Source of the DNA: a virus
Taxonomy: Duplodnaviria > Caudoviricetes
Length of the DNA stretch: 42,064 nt
IMG/VR virus record: IMGVR_UViG_3300020045_013890
Location: 1 to 42,064 of that record
Reading direction: 5' to 3' (one strand)
This document shows, in pieces, positions 1 to 42,064 of this stretch; position 1 is the first letter of the stretch, and every line of letters starts with the position of its first letter. A program made the translations under genes and the position numbers. The notes under the pieces are model-generated. The model was given only the letters and a program-made list of their open reading frames with translations, ran no database searches and was not told the origin of the DNA.

Positions 1-121
1 CCCCCGCAAATAATCTTATCACGCACGCCCCGGTGGTGCTAATCACCAGGTAATCTGGTGTGAAAAGTTCATAGTGATAAGTACTAGTATAAGGCCCAGC
101 GCCATCTGTATCAAGGATGGC
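1..121. repeat. Terminal direct repeat, copy 1 (121 bp); probably assembly circularisation overlap
   Basis: Identical to 41944-42064 (CCCCCGCAAATAATC...CAAGGATGGC); lies inside a gene that reads through the junction. Confidence 0.95.
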
Positions 122-337
122 AGTTTGTATGATGTCCTTAGGAACGAAGCCCATGCGGTGGTAGATCCGTTGCTCTGAGACAGGGCCATCATATGTCACA
201 GAAAAGAACTGGAAGTTAGACCTCAGAAACGGCGCCGCTAAGCTTGCCTCATACAAATACTGCAGCGCTTCACGAGTAATGGGGTCTTCGATTCCCTCAA
301 AGTTAGGACGACGAAGGGCTAGATTGATTTGTGCCAT
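1..337 (-). CDS. Junction-spanning 117-aa virion/tail-associated protein (337->1, continuing 41943->41927); absent from the ORF track
   Basis: ATG at 337 abuts the TAG of the nozzle gene. Open frame MAQINLALRRPNFEGIEDPITREALQYLYE...LFAGAYQDV with TAA at 41929-41927, overlapping the start of the adaptor gene. Confidence 0.85.
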   Translation of the reverse strand, partial: MAQINLALRRPNFEGIEDPITREALQYLYEASLAAPFLRSNFQFFSVTYDGPVSEQRIYHRMGFVPKDIIQTAILDTDGAGPYTSTYHYELFTPDYLVISTTGACVIRLFAG

Positions 338-3001
338 CTATGTCCCCACGTCGCCACGGTACGGCTCTTGAGATGGGCCGATAGTCTCAAAGAAAACACC
401 ATACTCTACAAGGTAAAAGAATTGGTTGTATGGAAAGCCCTGTAGTCTAAATGGTAATTCTGATCCAGCGGTAACCACGCCCTCGCCATCAAGTATGGTA
501 ATAACTGTGTCACTTACCCGTTCAATGATGGGAAAATTCTGAACGTAATCATCATCGGCAAATGTTATGAAGTTATTTTCAATGTCGGTGTTCCATGAGT
601 TATTTGTATCATCTAGCGTTAAGGTGCGCCTGCCGTCTGCGCCGACTGCCCCGAGTGTTACAGTTCCAAGACCGTCAGAATTAAAGCGTATGATCGATGC
701 ATTCGTGAAATGAAACTGCTTGTACTCACACCTGAGACTTGCCTTAGGGCATCTACGCTTCACGTCAAAAATCTGCTGCCTACGACGCCAAAGACGGGGG
801 TCACCATAACTAACAAGTGGCGTGCCCCAAGGATACATGTCGTAATTCACCATCTGCTTCATCTCTTGCAAATAGTTATTTTCGTCGTTCTCGCTGTATG
901 GAGTAACGGCAAAAACGCTCGCTTCAGTAGTTCTAGCTCTGGACTTTAAAACAAATCCATGAACCCATTTTCTATAAGAAGTGCTACCAAGGCTAGAAAC
1001 AACGCCTGAAAAGTAATGGTTAATCGCTAGTTGCTTTCTAACAATAGGGTCAGTGCTAGCGTTGTCCTGAGGTTCCACAATGACGTCACTGACGACAGAC
1101 TCATCAAAGGTAAGCAGGGTACCAGTGTAATTCCAGAAGACCACAGTTTTTTCACCAGAAATAGCCGCAGCATTGATAAAGAAGTTCTTATAGTATCTGG
1201 CATCCGGCACGTTGGTGAGTAGCTCATAACTGCCTACCACCGGAACAAAATCTAGTGTTATTTGTGTGCCAGAATCAACCGACACCACCCGGCCTTGGTA
1301 ATAATTTGTAAATGGTGTAGCTGCATTGTTACCGTAAACTAAATCACTAGCTTCAATACCAACTGTTGATCCGAGTGTCTGAACCTTGGTGGTGGTGGTA
1401 GTGCTGATAGTAATAGCAGGCCCTGGACCATAGTACCCAGAGCTCCACGTAGTGAACTTTCTGGTATCTTTTTCCATGCAGTAAACTTGGTTGTTCTCAT
1501 ACCCTAGAACCGTTGAAACAAAGTCAACAAAAGCCATCTGGCCAGGGGCGCTAGAATCCCGAACGAACCATAGAACCCTGTTTCGAGTAACGTCATGAAC
1601 TCCGCTTAGGTTTTCTTTGTCGTACTGGGTCGTGATTAGCTCTCTATAGGATTCTTCAAAATCCATATTTGATAAGGGGTATACCTTATAACCATCTGTG
1701 AAATAAAAGCCATCGTTACCAGCAAAGTACAGCCCATTCTCGGTTTGGGTTATCGACGCATTGCCAACAGCTCCCACGCCGTCAGAGATCTTGCGTCTAA
1801 CCATTCCACCACGACCAAAGTCGTCAAACGTGCCATCAAGCCGGTATACAGAGTTAGCACCAAAAACAATTGGGATGGAGTTAACCGATGATAGCCCTGT
1901 GATGTCTTCATCAATATCAACAAAAAAAGATCCAGGGACCGAATCACCATCGCCACCCTTTGACTGCCAAACACGGTTAGTTTTTAACTCACCATCTTCA
2001 CCAGTCAGGGGTGATACCTCATAGCCATTAGCCCAGAAAACAAAGTTATCTGTACCATGGACATATCTTGTTTTGGGTGCACGATCATTAGCCAGTACAC
2101 CACCATCAGTATACAGAACAGCGTTGTTGTCCAAGGCCTCATCTGAAACAGTGTCAGCAAATGAGGTGGTGCCAGTGGTTACTTCACCAACATAATATAG
2201 GGTGGTGCCAGCATTCCGCGTGCGATAGATCTCTACCTTGAGCTCCCCCGCCGGATATTTGTATTGTTTGAACTCATTGTATGTGCCGGTGAGGGATAAC
2301 AGATCTGGTATGGAACCAACGGTTATTCCGGGGCTTGCTCCTGGTGTTGCTGTTCCGATACCTGGGAATTCTACAAAAGTAGGCCGCGATCTGTCGATGT
2401 ATTCAACGCCGTTAACAGAATAAGTGTATTTATTAACAAGGGCGTAAATGTAATCTGCGCCAGCTCCACCAGTGGCGGTAAAGGTATTGGCGGTTGGTAT
2501 TAGTCCTGCCACACGCATTTGCACATCACCTGATGCGTCGTTAAAAAGCTTCATTGGGAGCGACCTGCACTGTGCAAGGCGATTATGAGTAAAGAATGTG
2601 TGGTTGTTCCATTTGGCAAAAGATATCTTTGCATCTCTTGCCAAGGCGTCAACCGGAAGGCAGTCAAATGGATCTACGTTATATTGGTTTGAAACAAGGT
2701 TCGCCCATGCTGTGCCATTAAAGTATTCAGTGGTCGATGCTGATGCAACAAATTCAACCAAGTCTCGATCTACGCCACTCTCAATGTATGTCATGCCGTT
2801 TTGCCTTGGAGAGTTACTAGCAACCCTGGGCTGACTTAACTTTTGTGAGTCAGGGTAGCGATAGTTAACACCGGGACGTGATTCAAGCTTGAGGTACTGA
2901 TTGGCAATAAAGTTATCCGCAGTTTCAAATTGGTTGTCTGCAGCATCTATGGGGTAATCTGTTTTACCGCCCGTGAAGTCGGCGTAGGTTTTTACTGGCA
3001 T
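338..3001 (-). CDS. Tail nozzle / tail tubular protein B-like (P22 gp10 / T7 gp12-type)
   Basis: 887 aa. N-terminal DFTGG...ADNF...LESRPG pattern and beta-propeller-like repeats (ITGLSS, FGANSVYRL, GLYFAGNDGFY); lies between fibre and adaptor genes. Confidence 0.7.
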   Translation of the reverse strand: MPVKTYADFTGGKTDYPIDAADNQFETADNFIANQYLKLESRPGVNYRYPDSQKLSQPRVASNSPRQNGMTYIESGVDRDLVEFVASASTTEYFNGTAWANLVSNQYNVDPFDCLPVDALARDAKISFAKWNNHTFFTHNRLAQCRSLPMKLFNDASGDVQMRVAGLIPTANTFTATGGAGADYIYALVNKYTYSVNGVEYIDRSRPTFVEFPGIGTATPGASPGITVGSIPDLLSLTGTYNEFKQYKYPAGELKVEIYRTRNAGTTLYYVGEVTTGTTSFADTVSDEALDNNAVLYTDGGVLANDRAPKTRYVHGTDNFVFWANGYEVSPLTGEDGELKTNRVWQSKGGDGDSVPGSFFVDIDEDITGLSSVNSIPIVFGANSVYRLDGTFDDFGRGGMVRRKISDGVGAVGNASITQTENGLYFAGNDGFYFTDGYKVYPLSNMDFEESYRELITTQYDKENLSGVHDVTRNRVLWFVRDSSAPGQMAFVDFVSTVLGYENNQVYCMEKDTRKFTTWSSGYYGPGPAITISTTTTTKVQTLGSTVGIEASDLVYGNNAATPFTNYYQGRVVSVDSGTQITLDFVPVVGSYELLTNVPDARYYKNFFINAAAISGEKTVVFWNYTGTLLTFDESVVSDVIVEPQDNASTDPIVRKQLAINHYFSGVVSSLGSTSYRKWVHGFVLKSRARTTEASVFAVTPYSENDENNYLQEMKQMVNYDMYPWGTPLVSYGDPRLWRRRQQIFDVKRRCPKASLRCEYKQFHFTNASIIRFNSDGLGTVTLGAVGADGRRTLTLDDTNNSWNTDIENNFITFADDDYVQNFPIIERVSDTVITILDGEGVVTAGSELPFRLQGFPYNQFFYLVEYGVFFETIGPSQEPYRGDVGT

Positions 3002-13165: not shown

Positions 13166-13454
13166 CTAGTAGTTGCTGCTCATATAACTCCGGGTCAGAG
13201 ATAAGGAGCTCATCTAATGTTTGTTGCTTAACGTCGGCTTCATCATCGGCGCTTACTTCCCCATTCGGCGCACTAAAGCCTGGAGAATTCATATTATCAT
13301 AAGATCCGCTAGATTTAAGCTCATACCCCAAAACTGTCCCGTGATCGGCAAACAGTATCTCCATATCACCAAGTTTAAAACGCACGACCTTAGCCTTAGC
13401 GAGCGCTGCCACAAGGGCAGGCAAATCCTTTAGGGTTCCATTAATTGATTCCAT
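13104..13454 (-). CDS. Hypothetical protein between TerL and portal
   Basis: 116 aa, overlapping both neighbours; GAGGAG upstream. Confidence 0.65.
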   Translation of the reverse strand: MESINGTLKDLPALVAALAKAKVVRFKLGDMEILFADHGTVLGYELKSSGSYDNMNSPGFSAPNGEVSADDEADVKQQTLDELLISDPELYEQQLLGDDNYDVRGRQERSNQPGAD

Positions 13455-16072
13455 TCATCAAGCTCCTCTTCTAATGACTGCTCTTCACTATCCTTACCAT
13501 CACCCAAAATATACTGACGACGCTGCTCAATTTCAGAGTACATCCTCTCCGCTGGCTTTTTGCGCCTTGCGGCAAGTGAATCGTTCATCATCTCCCAGTT
13601 CCAACCGATCTTCGCGATCGCGTACCGACAAGAATCAATGCTGTCATCCTTGGCTTTGGTCTTGTTAGTCTCAACGGCCAGCGACTCAAACTCGTCTGCC
13701 ATTTTATAACATTCAAGGTATTCGCCACTTGGAACTTCCTTTTCATAATCCTCATTTGGCATCATGAGCACAAATGAGCCAGACTTAAACAGCGTATTAA
13801 GAGCACCTTCGCCAATCGCATGGCTCTTCTCTGCGGTTTCAAACGGAAGTCCCGCGTTCTGCGCATACGTTGCAAGATCCTTGGCTGAATAGTCATAGTA
13901 CCAAGTGCGAACCTCTAGGCCACGGCTCATCTCAACGCATTTAAGTACTACGTCCTCGCTGGTGGTGATCAGATTATCCCCGCGCCAGTGGCGCACTACA
14001 CAGCCCTTTGTGAAGTCTGGGCTCACCGCCACTATCGTCACAGCAGATGGATGGTTCTTACCGCCTGAGCCGTAATCTGCGCCGCCAATATAGATCCAAT
14101 CTGCCGGGGGTTTTACGTATGGAACAAAGTGCCGCTCTCTATCGAATGTCTGGTATTTAAGACCTTCATCTTTTACGAATTTGCCAAAGATGCGGCGCTG
14201 TACTTCTGCAGGTGATACGCAGGCATCAATCGCTCTTTGGATCTTTTCTTTAGTCCACCTTGTGGGGGTGCCATCTTCAAACTTCATACAGTCATATAGA
14301 CTTATCTGCCAAACCTTGGCGTGCTTCCACTGTGTGCGGCGTTCTACTACGTCACGCCAGAATGTTTGACCTAGCGTTGCTGTGAAGACGAAGTGGATGT
14401 ATCCATCTGTTGCTGATACGCGTGTTTGTAATTCTGGTAGAAGGTCGATCCCCACCTCTTCGTCGTTAAACATGGCCCATACGGTCGATCCTTGGAGGGC
14501 CTCATTATTTTGTGCGTATGCTTTGAAGTGCAGTGAAATTCCAGACTTCCAGTCTATTCGCTCAATCTGCCGATTGCGATAATAAACTCGATAACCAAAT
14601 TCAGGGTGATCTTTATCCCCCGGTAAAAGCGGTACCCATTTATCCTCAAACTCTGCCGTCGCCAAAACCCTATCAGGATACAGGTACCAAAACAGTGAAG
14701 GCACAGCGCCCTCTGCCATCTGTACCGGCCAGAGTTTTGGCCATAATTCTTTATTCACGCACCACTCAATGCACTTCTTTATATTCACCGTGGAGTTATG
14801 GGTTACAACATAATTTAGGCCAGCTACAAAACACTGGTTCGGTGAATCAACACTGATACAGCGCCCATCCTTTGGGCCAATGGGTTCTATGTTACGAATC
14901 ACGCGCACGTGCTTGTAGCGAATGTCGCCTTCAGACTTCATCCACTGATCAACTTTGTTTTGTGCGAGTGAAAACGGATTCATTCCAGGCGGAAGTTTAA
15001 TGCGAAGCCTATGCGAGTCTTTGCCCTGCTTACGCTCGCCTTTGTGCGTGTAGAACGCTGTGCGCACTGAATGTTTAACGGTGCCGCCAAGGGAGAACAC
15101 CAATTGATCGACGCCATCCGCCAGTTCTTTACTTGCAGTGCTGTATTCGACGTTCGTTCTTGATGTCGTGCCATCTGTATCTAGTAAGGATCGAAGCAGT
15201 GCAAGGCGCTGCTCTACTGAACCAAGTAAATATTCTTTCGGAATAAATTTTGTATGGGAATAGGTTCCTAAAAGTCCCAGCGCCCTTAATTGTGGGTACA
15301 AGAGCGTGCCACGTATATTTACAGTGTAACATTTTTTACCACTGCGCCCCCACGCTGACTTTGCGCCATAATTTTGCACAAATCTTTCGCTGATTTTATC
15401 ATCTGGAGTGCATAGGCTAATGGAATTTGTGACACCAGTTATACAACCATCGCCAAGCAAGACGCCAAGGTCGTATGGATCTATCGGCAGTTCTTTTTCT
15501 AAAAACTCAATTGGGGCAACATAAGGAACAATATAACGATGAATCGGTCTGTGGGATGCGTCACCGTACTTGCCACTTTTAAACATTGATGCGGTGGTTT
15601 GAAGAATCCAATCCTTAGGGCCAGACCGAAAGCGCTGATGCTCACCCTTACATCGCCACAAGTGGCTCTGCCCTGCTTCTATGGTGGTGCCGTCATCAAA
15701 CGTGATGCGATAAAACTCATCCACACCTTCAAACGGTATACCCGTTACGTTGCACGGCTTACCGTCGTCGCCGATGACTTGATCGCCCACCACTAAATCG
15801 CCTATTGCCTTCGGCCCATTTGGTGTTATGATAAGTTCGCTGCGGCGCAGCATTTTGCCTATCTGGTTTGCCGCAGTAAGGCATTGAACTTTATCAGTAA
15901 TATTATCAAAATACTCCCTACTCCAAGGGTAATGCTTCTGCGCATACCGGTGCGGCAGAGCAACCTTCAGCCGCTCTTGATTCTCAAGCTGTTCAAGCTT
16001 TTGCAGCTTCAAGGCATAAAGCTCGCGCTCTACCTCATTCAAATTCGCTGGTATCTGTTTTAACTTGCTCAA
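13430..16072 (-). CDS. terL: Terminase large subunit, interrupted by an intein
   Basis: Walker A AANQIGK|S split by the intein; Walker B AMFNDEE; motif III FTAT; RNase H-like GADYG...DDSIDSCRY. Confidence 0.95.
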   Translation of the reverse strand: MSKLKQIPANLNEVERELYALKLQKLEQLENQERLKVALPHRYAQKHYPWSREYFDNITDKVQCLTAANQIGKMLRRSELIITPNGPKAIGDLVVGDQVIGDDGKPCNVTGIPFEGVDEFYRITFDDGTTIEAGQSHLWRCKGEHQRFRSGPKDWILQTTASMFKSGKYGDASHRPIHRYIVPYVAPIEFLEKELPIDPYDLGVLLGDGCITGVTNSISLCTPDDKISERFVQNYGAKSAWGRSGKKCYTVNIRGTLLYPQLRALGLLGTYSHTKFIPKEYLLGSVEQRLALLRSLLDTDGTTSRTNVEYSTASKELADGVDQLVFSLGGTVKHSVRTAFYTHKGERKQGKDSHRLRIKLPPGMNPFSLAQNKVDQWMKSEGDIRYKHVRVIRNIEPIGPKDGRCISVDSPNQCFVAGLNYVVTHNSTVNIKKCIEWCVNKELWPKLWPVQMAEGAVPSLFWYLYPDRVLATAEFEDKWVPLLPGDKDHPEFGYRVYYRNRQIERIDWKSGISLHFKAYAQNNEALQGSTVWAMFNDEEVGIDLLPELQTRVSATDGYIHFVFTATLGQTFWRDVVERRTQWKHAKVWQISLYDCMKFEDGTPTRWTKEKIQRAIDACVSPAEVQRRIFGKFVKDEGLKYQTFDRERHFVPYVKPPADWIYIGGADYGSGGKNHPSAVTIVAVSPDFTKGCVVRHWRGDNLITTSEDVVLKCVEMSRGLEVRTWYYDYSAKDLATYAQNAGLPFETAEKSHAIGEGALNTLFKSGSFVLMMPNEDYEKEVPSGEYLECYKMADEFESLAVETNKTKAKDDSIDSCRYAIAKIGWNWEMMNDSLAARRKKPAERMYSEIEQRRQYILGDGKDSEEQSLEEELDEWNQLMEP
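14795..15853 (-). mobile_element. Class-3 intein (353 aa) with LAGLIDADG homing endonuclease
   Basis: Starts MLRRSELIITPNG...; block B AGQSHLW; LAGLIDADG motifs LGVLLGDG and LRSLLDTDG; block F GRCISVD; ends VVTHN|S. Confidence 0.92.
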
Positions 16073-25307: not shown

Positions 25308-25519
25308 TTAAGAACTTACATGGCAAGAAAATCACACCCAAACAGTGGGCAGTTCAAATGATCATCTACGACCTTGAGACGATAACTGCATACTATGAAG
25401 AGCGATGGCCTTTAGAGATGGACGCCATGACTGAGAAAGAACAGAAAGAAGTGGCTAAACAAATTGATAAACTCCATACCAGGATCATTCGAATGGCCTT
25501 AAAGGCTGGTGGTCGCTAA
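25304..25519 (+). CDS. Hypothetical protein
   Basis: 71 aa; ATGA and TAATG coupling with neighbours. Confidence 0.7.
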   Translation: MIKNLHGKKITPKQWAVQMIIYDLETITAYYEERWPLEMDAMTEKEQKEVAKQIDKLHTRIIRMALKAGGR

Positions 25520-26091
25520 TGCGAACATCAAACTACGGCGACAAGTCGGATCTTAAGAAACTAAAGGCAGCGCTCTCGAAAGAGCGTAATCCAATGAACC
25601 TGATCCTTGAGCTCATCATCAGGACAGGCTGCCGCCAGATTGAGGCGGTGAACCTGCCAGTGGATGCGATTAACCCCACAAAGGGCGCGGTGCTTATCTT
25701 GGCTGCAAAGGGGTCAGCAGACCGCATAGGCTTTGTGAACAAGGCATTTGCAAGGGATCTTAAAGATACGTTTGGCAATGTTGCCAATGTTTATGAGTTC
25801 TTTGGTATCCGCAAATACCAGCCAGACTTCGAGAGGCGTCGCATGAGCCTACTAAGAGCCCTAGCAAGACAGTGGGAGATGGTAAGGCTTCATGTGCTTG
25901 GATATGAAGTGAAACTCACCTTACACGGCTTAAGAGCAACTGTAGGCATCGTGGCGTACGAGGAACTGGATAATGACATCCTGGCCACGCAAGAGATCCT
26001 AGGGCACAAGTCGCTTGAATCCACACATAGGTACGTGGCCATTGCCAGGACATCCAAACTGTCGGGCAGGATTAGGGACCGTATTGGCTAG
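25519..26091 (+). CDS. Tyrosine recombinase, catalytic domain only
   Basis: TGCR..E, KG, HGLR, LGH and Y (THRY) catalytic residues in 190 aa. Confidence 0.9.
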   Translation: MRTSNYGDKSDLKKLKAALSKERNPMNLILELIIRTGCRQIEAVNLPVDAINPTKGAVLILAAKGSADRIGFVNKAFARDLKDTFGNVANVYEFFGIRKYQPDFERRRMSLLRALARQWEMVRLHVLGYEVKLTLHGLRATVGIVAYEELDNDILATQEILGHKSLESTHRYVAIARTSKLSGRIRDRIG

Positions 26092-36892: not shown

Positions 36893-38149
36893 TTATTCTC
36901 CTTGGTTAGTTAGTTGTTTTAGTAGTCCGTATGCGCCAGCCCCGGCGGCTGCACCTGCAGGCTTGGCGAGCTTTGGTATTAAGTTAGCGGCCTTACTCAG
37001 TAGGTATGGATTGGTTGCGGCTTTCTTAAGCGCGAGTGCTCCAAGCCATTCTGGGTTGTCGGTAATGCCAGCACCCAAAGCTCCGCCACCACCCAGTATA
37101 TAATCAATTTGAGATATGGATGGCGCATTAGCCATATCACCAAGTAGTGGTGTGGCTTTGATGTTGCTGCGCAGGAGTGGCCCCTGTGCAGCATATTTAG
37201 CGGCATCATCTACTGACCCTTGTGAGAGGCGTCCGATGATTTCGTCATCAATATCTTTAACGGATGCTTTCCAAAATTGGTCTTGAATAGATGTAGTTTT
37301 TGCGGGATCGCGGGCAGCGTCTGATATCTTTCTGTTGAGCCCGCGTTTTACTTGTTCGAGTTCTTTGAGACTTCTGGGAGTTGTCGATGTTTTAGCAAGG
37401 TCTTTTTCCATGCGGCCAATGACACGTGCATCAGCACCATCAATTGCCTCACCTGTAGCTTTAGTTACAAGGTCTGTGGCGCGAGGCATGGCTCTTGGTG
37501 CAAGCGCCCCTTGTGATGCTGCAGCAGAGATAGCTTCACGCTCCAAGAGTCCTTTGGCAGTTTGGTTTTCAACAAACTCTTTAGCGGCTTTTGATGTCCC
37601 GCCCTTGAACCCTTGAGAGAGAAGACTCTCGCCAAGATTGATGCCTTTTTTAAATAGCTTTTGAGCTGCAGGTTTATATGCGGCATTCATGAGGTTTGAT
37701 GCAAGTTTAGGTGCCGCCTTTGCTGCAGCGGTTGCCCCCTTGGCAGCAGAGAAAATCACACCAGGATCAACCAGTGTCTCCGCTAGAAAACCTTGCACAG
37801 GCGTTGGGTTTTCAGCGCCAAACTGAGTCAGAAACTGTTGACCACTAATGGGATTTGCTTGAATGGCTTTAAGAAGCTGTCCTTCTTCGCCGCCCTCACC
37901 AAACGCAGAGGCAAGGCCGGTGCGAGTGACGCCGCCTGTGTAGTCAAGAACCTTACCAGCGCCCTCAAGGGCAAGCTGGCCTAGGCCCTTATCTTGGCTG
38001 CCAGCATATATCATGGCCTCTTGTTCGGCGGTGTATTGAGGCTTTGGTGCAAAGTCCATAGGAGCTGGTGCTGCCACAGATTCTTCTGCGACAGTATCCC
38101 GCCACGACTTAGCCGCAGGCGTTTCTTTAATGGAGTCTTTCCATCCCAT
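36893..38149 (-). CDS. Probable ejection / internal virion protein
   Basis: 418 aa, A/G/K-rich and helical; podovirus synteny after the tail genes. Confidence 0.65.
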   Translation of the reverse strand: MGWKDSIKETPAAKSWRDTVAEESVAAPAPMDFAPKPQYTAEQEAMIYAGSQDKGLGQLALEGAGKVLDYTGGVTRTGLASAFGEGGEEGQLLKAIQANPISGQQFLTQFGAENPTPVQGFLAETLVDPGVIFSAAKGATAAAKAAPKLASNLMNAAYKPAAQKLFKKGINLGESLLSQGFKGGTSKAAKEFVENQTAKGLLEREAISAAASQGALAPRAMPRATDLVTKATGEAIDGADARVIGRMEKDLAKTSTTPRSLKELEQVKRGLNRKISDAARDPAKTTSIQDQFWKASVKDIDDEIIGRLSQGSVDDAAKYAAQGPLLRSNIKATPLLGDMANAPSISQIDYILGGGGALGAGITDNPEWLGALALKKAATNPYLLSKAANLIPKLAKPAGAAAGAGAYGLLKQLTNQGE

Positions 38150-39090
38150 TAGTTAAATCCTTCAGCCGCAGCTTCCGACGCCTCTGCAGCGCTTGACACA
38201 GTTGCAGTTTGATTACCCTTGCGAACGGTCTTGGGATAACCACTGTCACCCGCTGGCTCTGCTGGTGCAGCAGCTCGACCATAGGCCTTGTCAATAACAC
38301 CTTGGTTTGCGCCCATGCTATCTCGAATAGCTTTAGATGTGATGAGTGCATCTTGCTTAAAGCCTTCAATATCGCGCCCGACCTGACCGGGGTTTCCAGT
38401 GGTGAATCCACCAAAGGCCACCTCAAGTTTACCAGCAAGGCGACGGGCCTCTTCGGCACCAACGGCGTCTTTTCCTTGAGTAGAGTTAAGGACCTTGATG
38501 AGCTGCCGCCCTTGTTGGAGCTTCTGAGGCTCAGTTAATGTGTCCCAGCTTGCAAACACAGAATCAATTGAGTTGGCAATAGACTCTTTAGCGGCGTTGT
38601 CTTTTGAGAGCGCCGTGATTGTTTGTTTTCTATCCTCTGGAAGGTTATCGAACATGCGCTGGGGCGCCATGGCTGCACGCATCTCATCGGCACGCGCTTG
38701 ACTTGCTTTATAAGATGCGATTTTGCCAAGCGCCGAATCACTACCACCACCTTTAGCAAGAGCTAGCTCTAAATCTGAAACGTCATTTTGACGTGCAAGT
38801 TGTGCTTTTTGATCTGCAGCAAAAGCAGGCGAAATATTTGTACCAAAGGAGCTATCAATGAGCTGCGCCATTGGGGATAGGTCAATACCAGATTGAATAT
38901 CCGCCTTACGTTTGACAAGCTGCTCTTCAAGCGCGGCTTGCTGTGCGGCTTTTGCCTCATCCTCTTGCTGCAAGAGTTGTGCGAAAATAGCATCAGGTGA
39001 TTGAGTAAGAAGCGCGCCGTAGTCTTTTTGCAAAGGGATGGATTGTTCCATCGGAGCTTGCTTTGGTTTATTGCCTAGTAGTCCTGCCAT
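38149..39090 (-). CDS. Probable ejection / internal virion protein
   Basis: 313 aa, A/Q-rich helical; MAGLLG start; GGAG RBS. Confidence 0.65.
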   Translation of the reverse strand: MAGLLGNKPKQAPMEQSIPLQKDYGALLTQSPDAIFAQLLQQEDEAKAAQQAALEEQLVKRKADIQSGIDLSPMAQLIDSSFGTNISPAFAADQKAQLARQNDVSDLELALAKGGGSDSALGKIASYKASQARADEMRAAMAPQRMFDNLPEDRKQTITALSKDNAAKESIANSIDSVFASWDTLTEPQKLQQGRQLIKVLNSTQGKDAVGAEEARRLAGKLEVAFGGFTTGNPGQVGRDIEGFKQDALITSKAIRDSMGANQGVIDKAYGRAAAPAEPAGDSGYPKTVRKGNQTATVSSAAEASEAAAEGFN

Positions 39091-39100
39091 GATGATCTCC

Positions 39101-39535
39101 TTAGCGGCTAGCGTACAGTGACTGCGATGCGTATGGGTTAAAGGACTGCATAGGAGCTACTGCATATTTATTCGCATCAAACAGCGTAGGTGCATTACCA
39201 GTGTTGAGGCCACCGATATCAGTTTTGATTTTGAGGGCATCACTGACATCTTGATTGCCTTGACTAAATAAGTTCGCACCCTTTAGTTTTTGCCCCTGTT
39301 GAAAACCAGAGACCGCGCCAGAGAGGGCGCCGCCAAGTAGGCCTGGGCCAGCATCCATCTCAGCAAGCTTCTTAGACTGACCTTGAACAAATGGAGAGAA
39401 CCGCGTGTCTTGTGCGCCTAACAGCGAATTGATCTTCTCACGGCGTGCAGCTTCTTTAGCCTTACCTGCAGCGCCAATACCACCAATGAGCGATCCAACG
39501 CCAGATGACAAAAGGCCGATTGTAATAGGGTCCAT
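39101..39535 (-). CDS. Small ejection protein (P22 gp7 / T7 gp14-like)
   Basis: MDPITIGLLSSGVGSLIGGIGAAG glycine-zipper N-terminus. Confidence 0.7.
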   Translation of the reverse strand: MDPITIGLLSSGVGSLIGGIGAAGKAKEAARREKINSLLGAQDTRFSPFVQGQSKKLAEMDAGPGLLGGALSGAVSGFQQGQKLKGANLFSQGNQDVSDALKIKTDIGGLNTGNAPTLFDANKYAVAPMQSFNPYASQSLYASR

Positions 39536-39538
39536 AGT

Positions 39539-39877
39539 CTAGTTCCTCTCCAATTTATAATAACAGACAATAAAGCGGTTATCTTTGATCTCATGGATCT
39601 TGCAGCCGTACTTTAATAGAGCCGCAAGGCTCGTATCTGGTGCCTTGTCTTTGGTGTCAACTTCGCAAAAAAGCCATTCAACGCCATTAGGTAGTTTTCT
39701 TACAAGGTCATCGGTCCATGCCTTTAATAGGCCATTGCCTCGGTGGGATTTTCCCACAAAGACCTCATGGATAAATACAGCAATATCATTAATCTGTGAC
39801 CAAACATAAAAGCCCTCAGGCATAACCTCAAGGGCTTGTCCCTTCTTCTCAGAGAGGTAATCAAGATACGCTTGCAT
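39539..39877 (-). CDS. GNAT-fold acetyltransferase-like protein
   Basis: FIHEVFVGKSHRGNG acetyl-CoA motif A; SLAALLKYG. Confidence 0.7.
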   Translation of the reverse strand: MQAYLDYLSEKKGQALEVMPEGFYVWSQINDIAVFIHEVFVGKSHRGNGLLKAWTDDLVRKLPNGVEWLFCEVDTKDKAPDTSLAALLKYGCKIHEIKDNRFIVCYYKLERN

Positions 39878-40994
39878 ATCTGATCTCGGTTTGGTTTTTT
39901 AATTTAAGTGAGTCTTCATCACTAAGTGATGCCCCCTCATTGGTTTCATGCATATCAGAGACCATGACCTTGTTTAGACCACACTCAATACAGTGACTTG
40001 AAGTAGCGATGCTGTAGGTGAAGCGAGAGACCGAATCTGCCTTAGTGGCGCAGACAGTATCCTTAGCCCGCTTCCACTCGCCGTCCTCTAGCACTGCATG
40101 GTTTGCGGTAAGAAGAATGTTTTTAAATTTCATCCACTGCGAGAGCGCAGCAATAGCTTGAGTTTTTGCATACACAACACCGCAGCTAGTCTCATCACCA
40201 ACTTCAATGAGCTTGATTGGCTTAAAGCAGCCGTTGGCCATGGCCACAAGGGTATTGGGGTGAAAACACGATGGTTTGTTTTGGGCGGCAACCTGACGCT
40301 CTTGCTCAGATTTGAGCTGAGACATGCGGAACTGGTTGTTCTGATTATACACATCAGTGTTGTAGACGTTCTGTGAGCCAGTCTCTTTCATGAGAGCATC
40401 AGTCACACCAGTTTGCTGCTGGGCACGAGTGCCCTCTTCTGCAATGCCAATATCAGCAAGGTTCTTCATGCCTTGAGCACGTAGGCCCTGACGGCCCTTC
40501 ATTGCAGCGCCAATACCGTCTGCAGCAATACGCTCACGAGATCCACTAGACAGACCACCCGATTGCGCAAGCTGCGAGTAGGCGTTCTGCTGAGCACCAA
40601 GCGATGATGCCGATAGATCGTCAATGGCAAAGCCTTGATCAATCCCTGCTTTTGTGCGCTGAGCTGCGTAGTAAGGGTTCTCACCACCACCAAAGGCCAT
40701 CTCACGCATCTTCTGAAACTCATCTGATGCTGTGGTGGAAATGCGATCTGGGCGCTCGGCAATGGTGGCTTCGATCAAGGCCCGTTCTTTATTAAGCCCA
40801 GATTCTTTTGATATCTTTTTATTAAGAGATGCGATTTGAGCTGCGTATGGATTCTGTTGAACCGCATTACCAATTCCACCAATGTTCATACCATCACCAG
40901 CTACCGCTTGAGGCTTAAACCCCTTGGACTTTTTTTGAAGGTCCTTAAGTTGCTTCTGGTAGGCATTAATATCTGTTGATTCTAATTTTGGCAT
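39861..40994 (-). CDS. Probable ejection protein with C-terminal Hint domain
   Basis: Q/A/G-rich N-terminal 242 aa (LAQSGGLSSG), then CFHPNTLVAMANG..KPI..IEVGD...LTANH Hint motifs. Confidence 0.8.
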   Translation of the reverse strand: MPKLESTDINAYQKQLKDLQKKSKGFKPQAVAGDGMNIGGIGNAVQQNPYAAQIASLNKKISKESGLNKERALIEATIAERPDRISTTASDEFQKMREMAFGGGENPYYAAQRTKAGIDQGFAIDDLSASSLGAQQNAYSQLAQSGGLSSGSRERIAADGIGAAMKGRQGLRAQGMKNLADIGIAEEGTRAQQQTGVTDALMKETGSQNVYNTDVYNQNNQFRMSQLKSEQERQVAAQNKPSCFHPNTLVAMANGCFKPIKLIEVGDETSCGVVYAKTQAIAALSQWMKFKNILLTANHAVLEDGEWKRAKDTVCATKADSVSRFTYSIATSSHCIECGLNKVMVSDMHETNEGASLSDEDSLKLKNQTEIRYASVS

Positions 40995-40995
40995 C

Positions 40996-41934
40996 TTAGT
41001 AAGCTCCTGCTCCTGAGTAGAAGTTGTCCATATCGTCGTATGCGGTTATGTCTTTTTCAATTTCGTCTTCTTGATCCGGCACCTTGTCGGTGAGCGTTTC
41101 AATCATTTGCTTTCTGAGCTCATCAAGCTTGATTTTTTCATCAGCAATACGTGGGTTGCCAAGCTCTTTCTTCAAACACTCCACGATTACATGTTGCGTG
41201 ATAAAGTTCCAAAACTCAGGATAATCGATGTAATCAGTTAACGCAGACGGCACAAAAGCTCTCCTTATATAATAACAAAGCATGCGCGGCTCCGTTGCTG
41301 TAATGGCAATAGCAGTACCTGTAGCAGTAGCCGCTTGGCTCATGCGAAGGGTACTTGCACCAGTATCAACCGACTCAATCCACGTGCCATCTGGTATTCC
41401 AGTTCCAGTTATAAAGTAGCGGGCCGCAAGGCCAGTGGTGGAGCTAAGTACTGTGAGTGTTTTAGAATCAAGAGTGGTGGTTGCGGTAATGCCTGACACT
41501 ACCGCCGTTACGTCTTGTGACGCGGGCGACATCTCGATAGTGGGGCCTACAAGCACTGAGTTATTAAAAAGCTGGTATGAATAGTACGAACCAGTTGAGT
41601 ACTGCTGCACGAGCTTTTGCTCAGCATAACGATTCTTGCGTGTATTGCGACGCACGTCGTAAAACTTCGTATTGTCATTAAATACAAGACGAAGGATTTT
41701 TTGAGCATAAATATTTTCAGGCAGGGGATACGTCGAAACACCAGCCTCAAGAGCTATGGGCGCCACTGTCTCGAAATACATGTCCTCAATATCGAGCTTA
41801 TGTATCTCAGCCTCACAGTATTTAATCGCTTCTTCAAAGTACTGGGTGAGCTCTTCATTGTTGATGAAAATCTCATCCTGCAGATCAAGCTTGTTTTCAA
41901 CAAAGCTTAGTGCATCGCCATAGGTCTTAAACAT
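40996..41934 (-). CDS. Head-tail adaptor / tail tubular protein A-like
   Basis: Helical N- and C-termini (EELTQYFEEAI; YPEFWNFITQHVI) around a beta core with YPLP..I...LRL. Start moved to MFKTY (41934). Confidence 0.7.
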   Translation of the reverse strand: MFKTYGDALSFVENKLDLQDEIFINNEELTQYFEEAIKYCEAEIHKLDIEDMYFETVAPIALEAGVSTYPLPENIYAQKILRLVFNDNTKFYDVRRNTRKNRYAEQKLVQQYSTGSYYSYQLFNNSVLVGPTIEMSPASQDVTAVVSGITATTTLDSKTLTVLSSTTGLAARYFITGTGIPDGTWIESVDTGASTLRMSQAATATGTAIAITATEPRMLCYYIRRAFVPSALTDYIDYPEFWNFITQHVIVECLKKELGNPRIADEKIKLDELRKQMIETLTDKVPDQEDEIEKDITAYDDMDNFYSGAGAY

Positions 41935-41943
41935 CTTGATATG

Positions 41944-42064
41944 CCCCCGCAAATAATCTTATCACGCACGCCCCGGTGGTGCTAATCACCAGGTAATCTG
42001 GTGTGAAAAGTTCATAGTGATAAGTACTAGTATAAGGCCCAGCGCCATCTGTATCAAGGATGGC
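41944..42064. repeat. Terminal direct repeat, copy 2
   Basis: Identical to 1-121. Confidence 0.95.

What the first reader, a model, noticed from the sequence alone, without database searches (positions are those of the whole stretch)
39861..40994. Ejection-type virion protein ending in a non-splicing, Hedgehog-like Hint domain
Seen: after a 242-aa Q/A/G-rich region the protein switches at NKPS|C243 (codon 40268-40266) to CFHPNTLVAMANGCFKPIKLIEVGD...LLTANHAV...TYSIATSSH...VMVSD. It keeps Cys1 and the block-B TxxH, has no endonuclease and lacks the terminal His-Asn, ending in VSD plus a ~27-aa tail. Established: Hint domains with Cys1 and TxxH but no terminal Asn (Hedgehog, some bacterial intein-like domains) perform the N-S acyl shift and N-terminal cleavage without splicing, and the thioester can be captured by an outside nucleophile. 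Inference: this phage matures an internal virion protein by autoprocessing and may ligate its new C-terminus to a lipid, small molecule or another protein. The overlapping downstream GNAT gene might belong to the same maturation module.
Basis: partly seen in the sequence, partly recalled or inferred. Interest (0 to 1): 0.85.

Follow-up and report, generated by a model that had tools for sequence, protein, structure and literature searches.

The report
Swappable self-cutting cap on phage protein
A predicted DNA-injection protein of an uncultured phage ends in an intein-like (Hint) domain that likely cuts itself off, and relatives carry this cap, a different cysteine-led cap or no cap at the same spot, with a small acetyltransferase-fold gene present among the closest relatives only when the Hint cap is, which points to an untested way of finishing phage particle proteins.

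Summary
Observation confirmed. Residues 243-347 fold as a Hint domain (pLDDT 91; Z 12.7-14.7 to intein, BIL, Hedgehog and Vint structures) with Cys243 and Thr296-x-x-His299. Asp347 sits where inteins have the terminal Asn and is invariant in 127 of 127 aligned relatives; no +1 nucleophile follows, so canonical splicing is excluded. A conserved acidic extension (Glu350...Asn367) follows; it is hydrophilic, unlike Hedgehog's sterol-binding region. Homologues of the N-terminal part carry, at the same junction, this Hint, a Cys-led CFI-box-like cap, or nothing; capless close relatives end 6-19 residues after a shared Lys, where cleavage would leave 14. Best reading: a removable, self-cleaving maturation cap (inferred, untested). 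Capture of an amine is the main rival; a lipid is unlikely. The overlapping GNAT tracks the Hint within the close clade (4 of 4 versus 0 of 11 clusters), but its homologues also occur without any Hint (13 of 13 loci from a GNAT-first scan), so it is a gp13-like gene coupled only in some lineages. 'Ejection protein' rests on gene order. No paper found; this scan noted the same Hint-GNAT cassette and cap swapping on other genomes.

The parts
39861..40994 (-). 377-aa gene: predicted internal virion (ejection-type) protein with C-terminal Hint cap
   Evidence: synteny
40269..40994 (-). N-terminal part, residues 1-242 (26.0 kDa), Q/A/G-rich, with the conserved GGLSSGxRER motif; the predicted mature product
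39954..40268 (-). Hint core, Cys243-Asp347 (105 aa), no endonuclease
40266..40268 (-). Cys243, block A nucleophile (125 of 127; one row has Met, one a gap)
40098..40109 (-). Block B Thr296-x-x-His299 (His 127 of 127; Thr 106, Ser 10)
39993..39995 (-). His334 (122 of 127), likely the block F His by sequence register
   Evidence: register inferred
39954..39956 (-). Asp347, invariant (127 of 127), at the intein terminal-Asn / Hedgehog C143 position
39864..39953 (-). Conserved acidic extension: Glu350, Ser362-Leu363, Asn367, predicted helix 359-368
39539..39877 (-). 112-aa GNAT-fold gene (type GNAT1), overlapping the Hint gene by 17 nt
40996..41952 (-). Head-tail adaptor (Pfam SU10_adaptor, 29.6 bits, cut-off 27), directly upstream
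39101..39535 (-). 144-aa Gly/Ala-rich protein, presumed second ejection protein; same slot in all relatives
   Evidence: function inferred
36893..39090 (-). 313-aa and 418-aa proteins, presumed further ejection proteins
   Evidence: function inferred
338..3001 (-). 887-aa virion structural protein (nozzle-like by size and place); precedes the adaptor across the circular junction
   Evidence: phrog_3287, E 3.8e-6

Best explanation
The protein is a predicted internal virion (ejection-type) protein carrying a mobile, Asp-terminated Hint domain that likely acts as a removable maturation cap, cutting itself off at Ser242-Cys243. Shown: the Hint fold prediction, Cys243, Thr296/His299, invariant Asp347 in place of the terminal Asn, no +1 nucleophile, and relatives with another cap or none at this junction. 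Inferred: Cys243 forms a thioester by N-S acyl shift; His334, Asp347 and Glu350 activate water to resolve it; the 26-kDa N-part, equal in length to capless relatives, is packaged, and the 14.8-kDa cap is discarded. Before cleavage the cap would mask or chaperone the C-terminus during assembly. The overlapping GNAT is a gp13-like morphogenesis gene that in this clade is kept only with the Hint, and likely acts on the precursor or the freshly cut product.
For: Fold and register. Residue conservation in 127 sequences, all six key residues in 113. No HN[CST] in 127 of 127; +1 is C/S/T in 1 of 127. Cys243 lies 15 residues after Lys228, so cleavage leaves 14; ten capless clade-A relatives end 6-19 residues after the same Lys. 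Among 107 distinct junctions: 63 Hint, 29 capless, 15 other Cys-led caps. The nearest non-Hint relative, P0014 (64% identity), nests inside the window's subclade (support 0.977) with a CFI-box-like cap. The Hint sits on unrelated carriers too (66 of 127; at least 15 carrier changes on the tree). Residue -1 is S/A/G in 54 of 63. Hint domains without a +1 nucleophile mainly give cleaved products (PMC7664689, passages).
Against: No biochemical or proteomic data. The position matching the intein F4 Asp by sequence register is Ser/Asn here (Asp in 11 of 127), so the thioester step may be slow or need a trigger. Invariant Asp347, Glu350 and Asn367 and the tight GNAT coupling in clade A are more than plain hydrolysis seems to need. 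Capless relatives end in basic or hydrophobic residues that the cleaved product would lack. The virion role is inferred from synteny only.
Confidence: 0.5

Rival explanations
1. Amine ligation: the Cys243 thioester is captured by a cationic amine (a polyamine, or a Lys side chain of another virion protein) held by the acidic extension and activated by His334/Asp347/Glu350. The GNAT would supply, acylate or cap that amine.
For: Extension D347-N367 has mean net charge -5.9. Clade-A capless ends carry 2.0 K/R in the last six residues (n=10), against 0.36 before the Hint (n=14; p 7e-5) and 0.85 in 211 neighbouring ORF ends. GNAT1 beside 5 of 6 Hint clusters against 1 of 30 others (Fisher p 9e-5, not corrected for kinship). 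Best Foldseek match is Tetrahymena BIL2, reported to form isopeptide bonds to Lys (PMC8616854, passages).
Against: Small residues before Cys may only reflect a Hint's linker needs. GNAT1 homologues occur without Hint in 13 of 13 loci. Of 22 Hint-first loci, 7 have no GNAT beside them, and complete record G025 has none in 40 of 42.4 kb. The two genes overlap, so they may simply travel together. No conserved Lys follows the Hint.
Confidence: 0.25
2. Non-cleaving or rarely cleaving domain: the Hint stays attached as a folding, sorting or docking module, or is a domesticated relic.
For: No activity shown; F4-position Asp missing; capless relatives show the cap is dispensable in other lineages.
Against: Cys, His, His, Asp, Glu and Asn are all kept in 113 of 127 sequences at about 30% identity; the alternative caps also start with Cys at the same junction.
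Confidence: 0.12
3. Asp347 takes the terminal Asn's role: cyclisation or anhydride formation cuts after Asp347 or relays the acyl group, giving two-ended cleavage or an atypical splice with the 30-residue tail.
For: Asp347 aligns with the terminal Asn of several inteins; His334 is conserved; Asp is a known C-terminal residue of class 1 inteins (PMC7664689, passage).
Against: No +1 nucleophile; penultimate residue is Ala/Ser/Gly, not His; the tail is modelled as a packed helix at pLDDT about 90.
Confidence: 0.07
4. Hedgehog-like lipidation: a sterol-like or other lipid alcohol is esterified to Ser242, giving the ejection protein a membrane anchor.
For: Same fold and first-step residues as Hedgehog (Z 13.2); several capless relatives end in hydrophobic tails such as ...FLGIF.
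Against: No conserved Asp/Glu between D267 and E303; the extension is 30 aa, acidic and hydrophilic (GRAVY -1.0), unlike a sterol-recognition region (PMC8529194, passages).
Confidence: 0.06

Closest known systems
Vint domain (Pfam PF14623; PDB 8R2C; Burglin 2008, PMC2362128)
   Same: Best Pfam match (E 9e-5); C-terminal Hint with motifs A and B and without His-Asn; the structural alignment reaches furthest into the C-terminal extension (model 8-133, Z 12.7).
   Different: 22.7 bits against a cut-off of 27; no VWA or Vwaint domain; phage virion context; invariant D-x-x-E...S-L-x-x-L-N tail.
Hedgehog/Hog autoprocessing domain (PF01079; PDB 1AT0)
   Same: Hint fold, Cys1, TxxH, C-terminal position with an extension after the core, no splicing.
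   Different: No D46-like acid; Asp instead of the downstream Cys143; extension short, acidic and hydrophilic.
Bacterial intein-like domains: A-type (PDB 2LWY), B-type (PF13403) and Tetrahymena BIL2 (6Y75/6TMM)
   Same: Endonuclease-free Hint on variable, non-housekeeping proteins; top structural matches; BIL2 shows that Lys isopeptide formation by a Hint is possible.
   Different: No His-Asn (not A-type); no PF13403 hit for the window protein; Asp-terminated core with a conserved helix; nearest look-alike clusters are mostly viral.
Class 1 mini-inteins
   Same: Fold, Cys1, block B; Asp can be a terminal residue in some.
   Different: No Cys/Ser/Thr at +1; sits at the protein's end, not inside a conserved host protein. 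The same genome has a true LAGLIDADG intein in its terminase for contrast.
Peptidase S74 intramolecular chaperone (PF13884) and CFI-box-CTERM (NCBIfam NF041770)
   Same: C-terminal caps on virion proteins. S74 caps sit on the gene after GNAT1 in L129 and L132; a CFI-box cap above the cut-off (P0040) occupies the same junction as the Hint.
   Different: Unrelated sequence families. S74 self-cleavage is recalled knowledge; no paper on the CFI-box was found.
T7 gp13-like GNAT next to internal virion proteins (cobaviruses, PMC6775973)
   Same: Small GNAT between tail or adaptor genes and ejection genes.
   Different: No Hint mentioned in the passages seen; in this clade the gene comes and goes with the Hint cap.

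Membership tests
HINT superfamily | Hint fold | tested here: met
   pLDDT 91.4; Z 12-14.7, rmsd 1.7-2.8 over 99-117 residues
HINT superfamily | Block A Cys/Ser and block B TxxH | tested here: met
   C243, T296, H299
HINT superfamily | N-S acyl shift activity | not testable with these tools
   needs hydroxylamine/thiol cleavage assay
Class 1 intein | Terminal Asn/Gln/Asp | tested here: met
   D347 at the terminal position
Class 1 intein | Cys/Ser/Thr at +1 and a C-extein | tested here: not met
   M348; C/S/T in 1 of 127
A-type BIL | C-terminal His-Asn | tested here: not met
   Ser346-Asp347; HN[CST] in 0 of 127
B-type BIL | Match to Hint_2 (PF13403) | tested here: not met
   no hit at E 0.1 for the protein or the domain; 1 of 16 Hint-bearing relatives scanned hit weakly
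Hedgehog Hog domain | Conserved Asp (D46) activating the sterol | tested here: not met
   no conserved D/E column between 267 and 303; exact 3D equivalence not checked
Hedgehog Hog domain | Downstream Cys (C143) | tested here: not met
   model 11-116 aligns to 1at0 258-401, putting D347 at C400
Hedgehog Hog domain | Sterol-recognition region | tested here: not met
   30-aa extension, GRAVY -1.0, net charge -5.9 in the family
Vint | Pfam PF14623 above cut-off | tested here: inconclusive
   22.7 of 27 bits for the window; P0015 reaches 27.9
Vint | VWA + Vwaint domains upstream | tested here: not met
   no VWA hit; architecture from PMC2362128 passages
GNAT (112-aa gene) | GNAT profile and motif A R-G-x-G | tested here: met
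   orthologues L027, L028, L030 pass PF00583; H-R-G-N-G in the window; profile hits GNAT structures at E 2e-6
GNAT (112-aa gene) | Acyl-CoA-dependent transfer and its substrate | not testable with these tools
   PDB matches cover the generic motif A only
Podovirus ejection / internal virion protein | Place after nozzle and adaptor, Q/A/G-rich | tested here: met
Podovirus ejection / internal virion protein | Homology to a named ejection protein (T7 gp14, P22 gp7) | tested here: inconclusive
   no PHROG or PDB hit; Atlas lists P22_gp7 only at 0.81, lead level
Podovirus ejection / internal virion protein | Presence in virions | not testable with these tools
   uncultured phage

The most novel reading that the evidence does not exclude
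A virus-specific, Asp-terminated Hint class works as an ATP-free C-terminal ligase. It swaps itself for an amine (polyamine or partner Lys) on an ejection protein, and the overlapping GNAT acylates that amine, building by chemistry the basic or hydrophobic tip that capless relatives encode directly. The CFI-box-like Cys-led caps at the same junction would be a second, unrelated self-processing fold.
Probability: 0.2. Interest if true: 0.85.

Novelty: new variant of a known kind. Interest (0 to 1): 0.6.

Why it matters
Hint chemistry is known from inteins, Hedgehog and BIL domains, but I found no paper on its use to mature phage ejection proteins. The family is large (989 representatives at E 0.001 with the whole-protein profile) and has its own second-step residues (His, terminal Asp, Glu). 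One gene slot holds a Hint cap, a CFI-box-like cap or no cap in close relatives, which gives a natural comparison for what both caps do, including the uncharacterised CFI-box domain. If an adduct is formed, it would be a new protein modification of virions and a compact 135-residue ligation tool.

Tried and rejected
Hint-GNAT complex prediction (residues 237-370 with the 112-aa gene): score 0.00, 'no answer'; not used as evidence. Single-sequence fold of the GNAT gave pLDDT 56.8 and no Foldseek match at E 0.001, uninformative. GenBank phages: no match for the protein, so no cultured relative was found. PHROGs, NCBIfam and PDB sequence searches do not name the N-part. A locus scan with the 127-row Hint alignment could not run; a DNA pattern was used instead. 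The IQ-TREE run timed out; FastTree was used, with weak deep nodes. The contig of P0014 was not found, so its GNAT status is unknown. 'GNAT is a dedicated Hint partner everywhere': rejected. 'Hint was inherited once in clade A and only lost': not supported, since clade-A Hints are not monophyletic. 'Replacement by S74 on this protein': not seen among 107 junctions as read (Pfam scan of 14 non-Hint relatives). Hint hits in the Bdellovibrionales bin are ordinary His-Asn domains outside the prophage locus. A look-up meant for the Vint structure paper, by a recalled DOI, found nothing, so I saw only the PDB title.

Full report
Setting. The window is a complete circular phage record (121-bp end overlap; direct terminal repeats, 100% complete). 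On the minus strand it has terminase (with a LAGLIDADG intein), portal, major capsid, an 887-aa structural protein, then across the junction a 117-aa ORF, an SU10-type adaptor, the 377-aa protein of the finding, a 112-aa gene and proteins of 144, 313 and 418 aa. This is the place of the internal virion (ejection) genes in podoviruses (established knowledge; cobavirus order in PMC6775973, passages). No search named the N-terminal part, so 'ejection protein' is an inference from order and composition. More distant homologues lie in Bdellovibrionales and Bacteriovoracaceae bins (2 of 3 loci; the third was a spurious match), which hints at a Bdellovibrionota host for the group. The host of this phage is not established.

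Cys243 (40268-40266), Thr296-x-x-His299 and Val-Ser-Asp347 are as described; the tail is 30 residues. Pfam gives Vint at E 9e-5, below cut-off. A model built on 127 sequences has pLDDT 91.4, is all-beta, and has one helix at 359-368. It matches BIL2, Vint, intein and Hedgehog structures and many viral Hint proteins. In the structural alignments model residue 115 (Asp347) ends on the last residue of several inteins (1am2 198, 2imz 440, 6riz 125), and model 116 ends on 1at0 residue 401. So Asp347 takes the place of the terminal Asn and of Hedgehog's downstream Cys.

The family. One exhaustive search with the 7-sequence alignment found 989 representatives at E 0.001 and listed 150. I aligned the window's domain with 126 Hint-bearing proteins, leaving out 15 (13 flagged with two matched stretches, a fragment and a truncated one). 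His299 and Asp347 are invariant; Cys243 is in 125; His334, Glu350 and Asn367 are each in 122; all six occur together in 113. None has His-Asn-Cys/Ser/Thr, and the +1 residue is a nucleophile in 1 of 127. The position matching intein F4 by register is Ser or Asn (Asp in 11), and no acid is conserved between Asp267 and Glu303, so neither the intein F4 Asp nor Hedgehog's D46 (PMC7765530 and PMC8529194, passages) is evident. The extension from Asp347 to Asn367 has mean net charge -5.9 and GRAVY -1.0. It is a conserved but hydrophilic analogue of Hedgehog's adduct region. The domain is mobile: 66 of 127 sit on other carriers, with at least 15 carrier changes on the tree (shuffled mean 42.6).

The cap is swappable. 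Homologues of residues 1-242 carry, at the same junction, a Hint (63 distinct junctions), another Cys-led domain (15) or nothing (29). One Cys-led cap passes the CFI-box-CTERM cut-off (P0040, 46.9 of 40 bits), three score below it and three have no hit, so these may be more than one family. P0014, 64% identical to the window protein, groups inside the window's subclade (0.977) yet has the Cys-led cap, which indicates a recent swap. Cleavage before Cys243 would leave 14 residues after Lys228; ten capless members of the well-supported close clade (clade A, support 1.0) end 6-19 residues after that Lys. This is the strongest argument that the N-part is the functional unit and the cap is removed. 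Capless ends are basic or hydrophobic, while the residues before the Hint are small and neutral (clade A K/R in the last six: 2.0, n=10, against 0.36, n=14; background 0.85 from 211 ORF ends). That fits post-translational addition of an amine, but equally a Hint's need for a small linker, and the sequences are not independent.

The GNAT. The 112-aa gene is GNAT-fold by its orthologues and profile. Loci came (20; 39; 3), plus the window and L080. I dropped four open-ended ORFs, one spurious match and one duplicate, clustered at 75% into 37 groups, and dropped L029, whose contig ends 62 nt after the gene. GNAT1 lies beside 5 of 6 Hint groups and 1 of 30 others (Fisher p 9e-5, uncorrected for kinship). 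In clade A it is 4 of 4 against 0 of 11, in otherwise identical gene order, and six Hint-less genomes have no GNAT-like hit in the 40 kb scanned of 40.9-44.9 kb. Against a dedicated role: a GNAT-first pattern scan gave 14 matches, 13 of them GNAT1 homologues (E 3e-20 to 1e-10 with the clade-A profile). None has this Hint in the fetched DNA, nor in 12 whole records, of which 3 are at least 90% complete. That pattern favoured one sub-branch. A Hint-first scan gave 22 loci: 10 with GNAT1, 1 with a second GNAT type, 2 with a third small GNAT-like gene (fold not confirmed), 2 cut off, and 7 with none; complete record G025 has none in 40 of 42.4 kb. The whole-record tally of GNAT1 in 11 of 21 Hint-positive and 0 of 14 Hint-negative virus records is partly circular, because those 11 genes or their close orthologues built the profile. 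Reading: a general gp13-like morphogenesis GNAT that is tied to the Hint in some lineages, either functionally or because the overlapping genes travel together.

Mechanism. Most likely (0.5): N-S acyl shift at Ser242-Cys243, helped by Thr296/His299, then hydrolysis directed by His334/Asp347/Glu350, releasing the 26-kDa protein. Every chemical step is inferred from homology (Hedgehog and BIL chemistry as summarised in PMC7664689, PMC7765530 and PMC8529194). Rivals: amine capture (0.25; BIL2 precedent in PMC8616854, passages), no cleavage (0.12), Asp-based C-terminal chemistry (0.07), lipid ester (0.06). Self-cleavage of some kind thus stands near 0.85.

Novelty. The domain fails the defining tests for class 1 inteins, A-type BIL, Hog and VWA-Vint proteins, but works like them in its predicted first step: a new variant of a known kind. 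Searches found no paper on such caps in phage virion proteins or on the CFI-box; subscription papers are mostly outside the library. I saw passages only of PMC2362128, PMC6775973, PMC8529194, PMC8616854, PMC7664689 and PMC7765530 (plus part 1 of its section 5), and passages that did not bear on the question in PMC5259590, PMC3765740, PMC8790156 and bioRxiv 10.64898/2026.07.21.739742. No supplements were read; those of PMC2362128 list bacterial Hint-like proteins that could overlap this family. Earlier notes of this scan report the same Hint-GNAT cassette and cap swapping on other genomes; they are leads, not support, and my counts weaken their 'dedicated partner' wording. Interest 0.6.

Noticed in passing
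L020, L021, L022, L041, L044, L046, L059/L065, L063, L064, L066 (gene after the homologue): A second, about 140-aa GNAT-like family follows capless homologues that end in Gly-Lys-Lys: 8 of 8 capless clusters with it end in GKK, 0 of 13 without it do. It may acylate the terminal lysines; mostly related lineages, so not independent.
   Followed up: partly
L013, L017, L024, L034, L048, L056, L057, L061; P0022: Capless homologues without a GNAT often end in a hydrophobic or amphipathic tail such as ...FLGIF or ...IFSGIF.
   Followed up: partly
L069, L071, L072, L075, L079, L081, L083, L088 and P0059-P0161: On other carriers the residue before the Hint Cys is often Phe (34 of 77), closing a Lys-rich amphipathic stretch such as ...KKAF or ...KKIF.
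   Followed up: no
L116-L121: The CCFIFMEA-type cap also ends unrelated Ser/Gly/Gln-rich phage proteins, with a 116-164-aa gene just upstream (GNAT-like by eye, not confirmed).
   Followed up: partly
L129:4321-5259, L132:2832-3647: Peptidase S74 caps on the gene right after a GNAT1 homologue, in Hint-less loci.
   Followed up: partly
window 13430-16072 (-): Terminase large subunit with a canonical-looking intein (LAGLIDADG, ends His-Asn then Ser).
   Followed up: no
window 1-337 and 41930-41943 (-): A 117-aa ORF between the 887-aa protein and the adaptor crosses the circular junction and is missed in a linear reading; conserved in relatives.
   Followed up: yes
window 25519-26091 (+): 190-aa tyrosine-recombinase-family gene (PF00589); homologous virion genes occur in Bdellovibrionota bins, so the group may be temperate.
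   Followed up: no
L020:5954-6430, L025:6265-6771: An unnamed 159-169-aa gene follows the second GNAT type in some loci; no Pfam hit.
   Followed up: partly
L163:3165-4295, L164:2784-3563: Two proteins with signal-peptide-like starts and ordinary His-Asn Hint domains in a Bdellovibrionales bin, outside the prophage locus.
   Followed up: no
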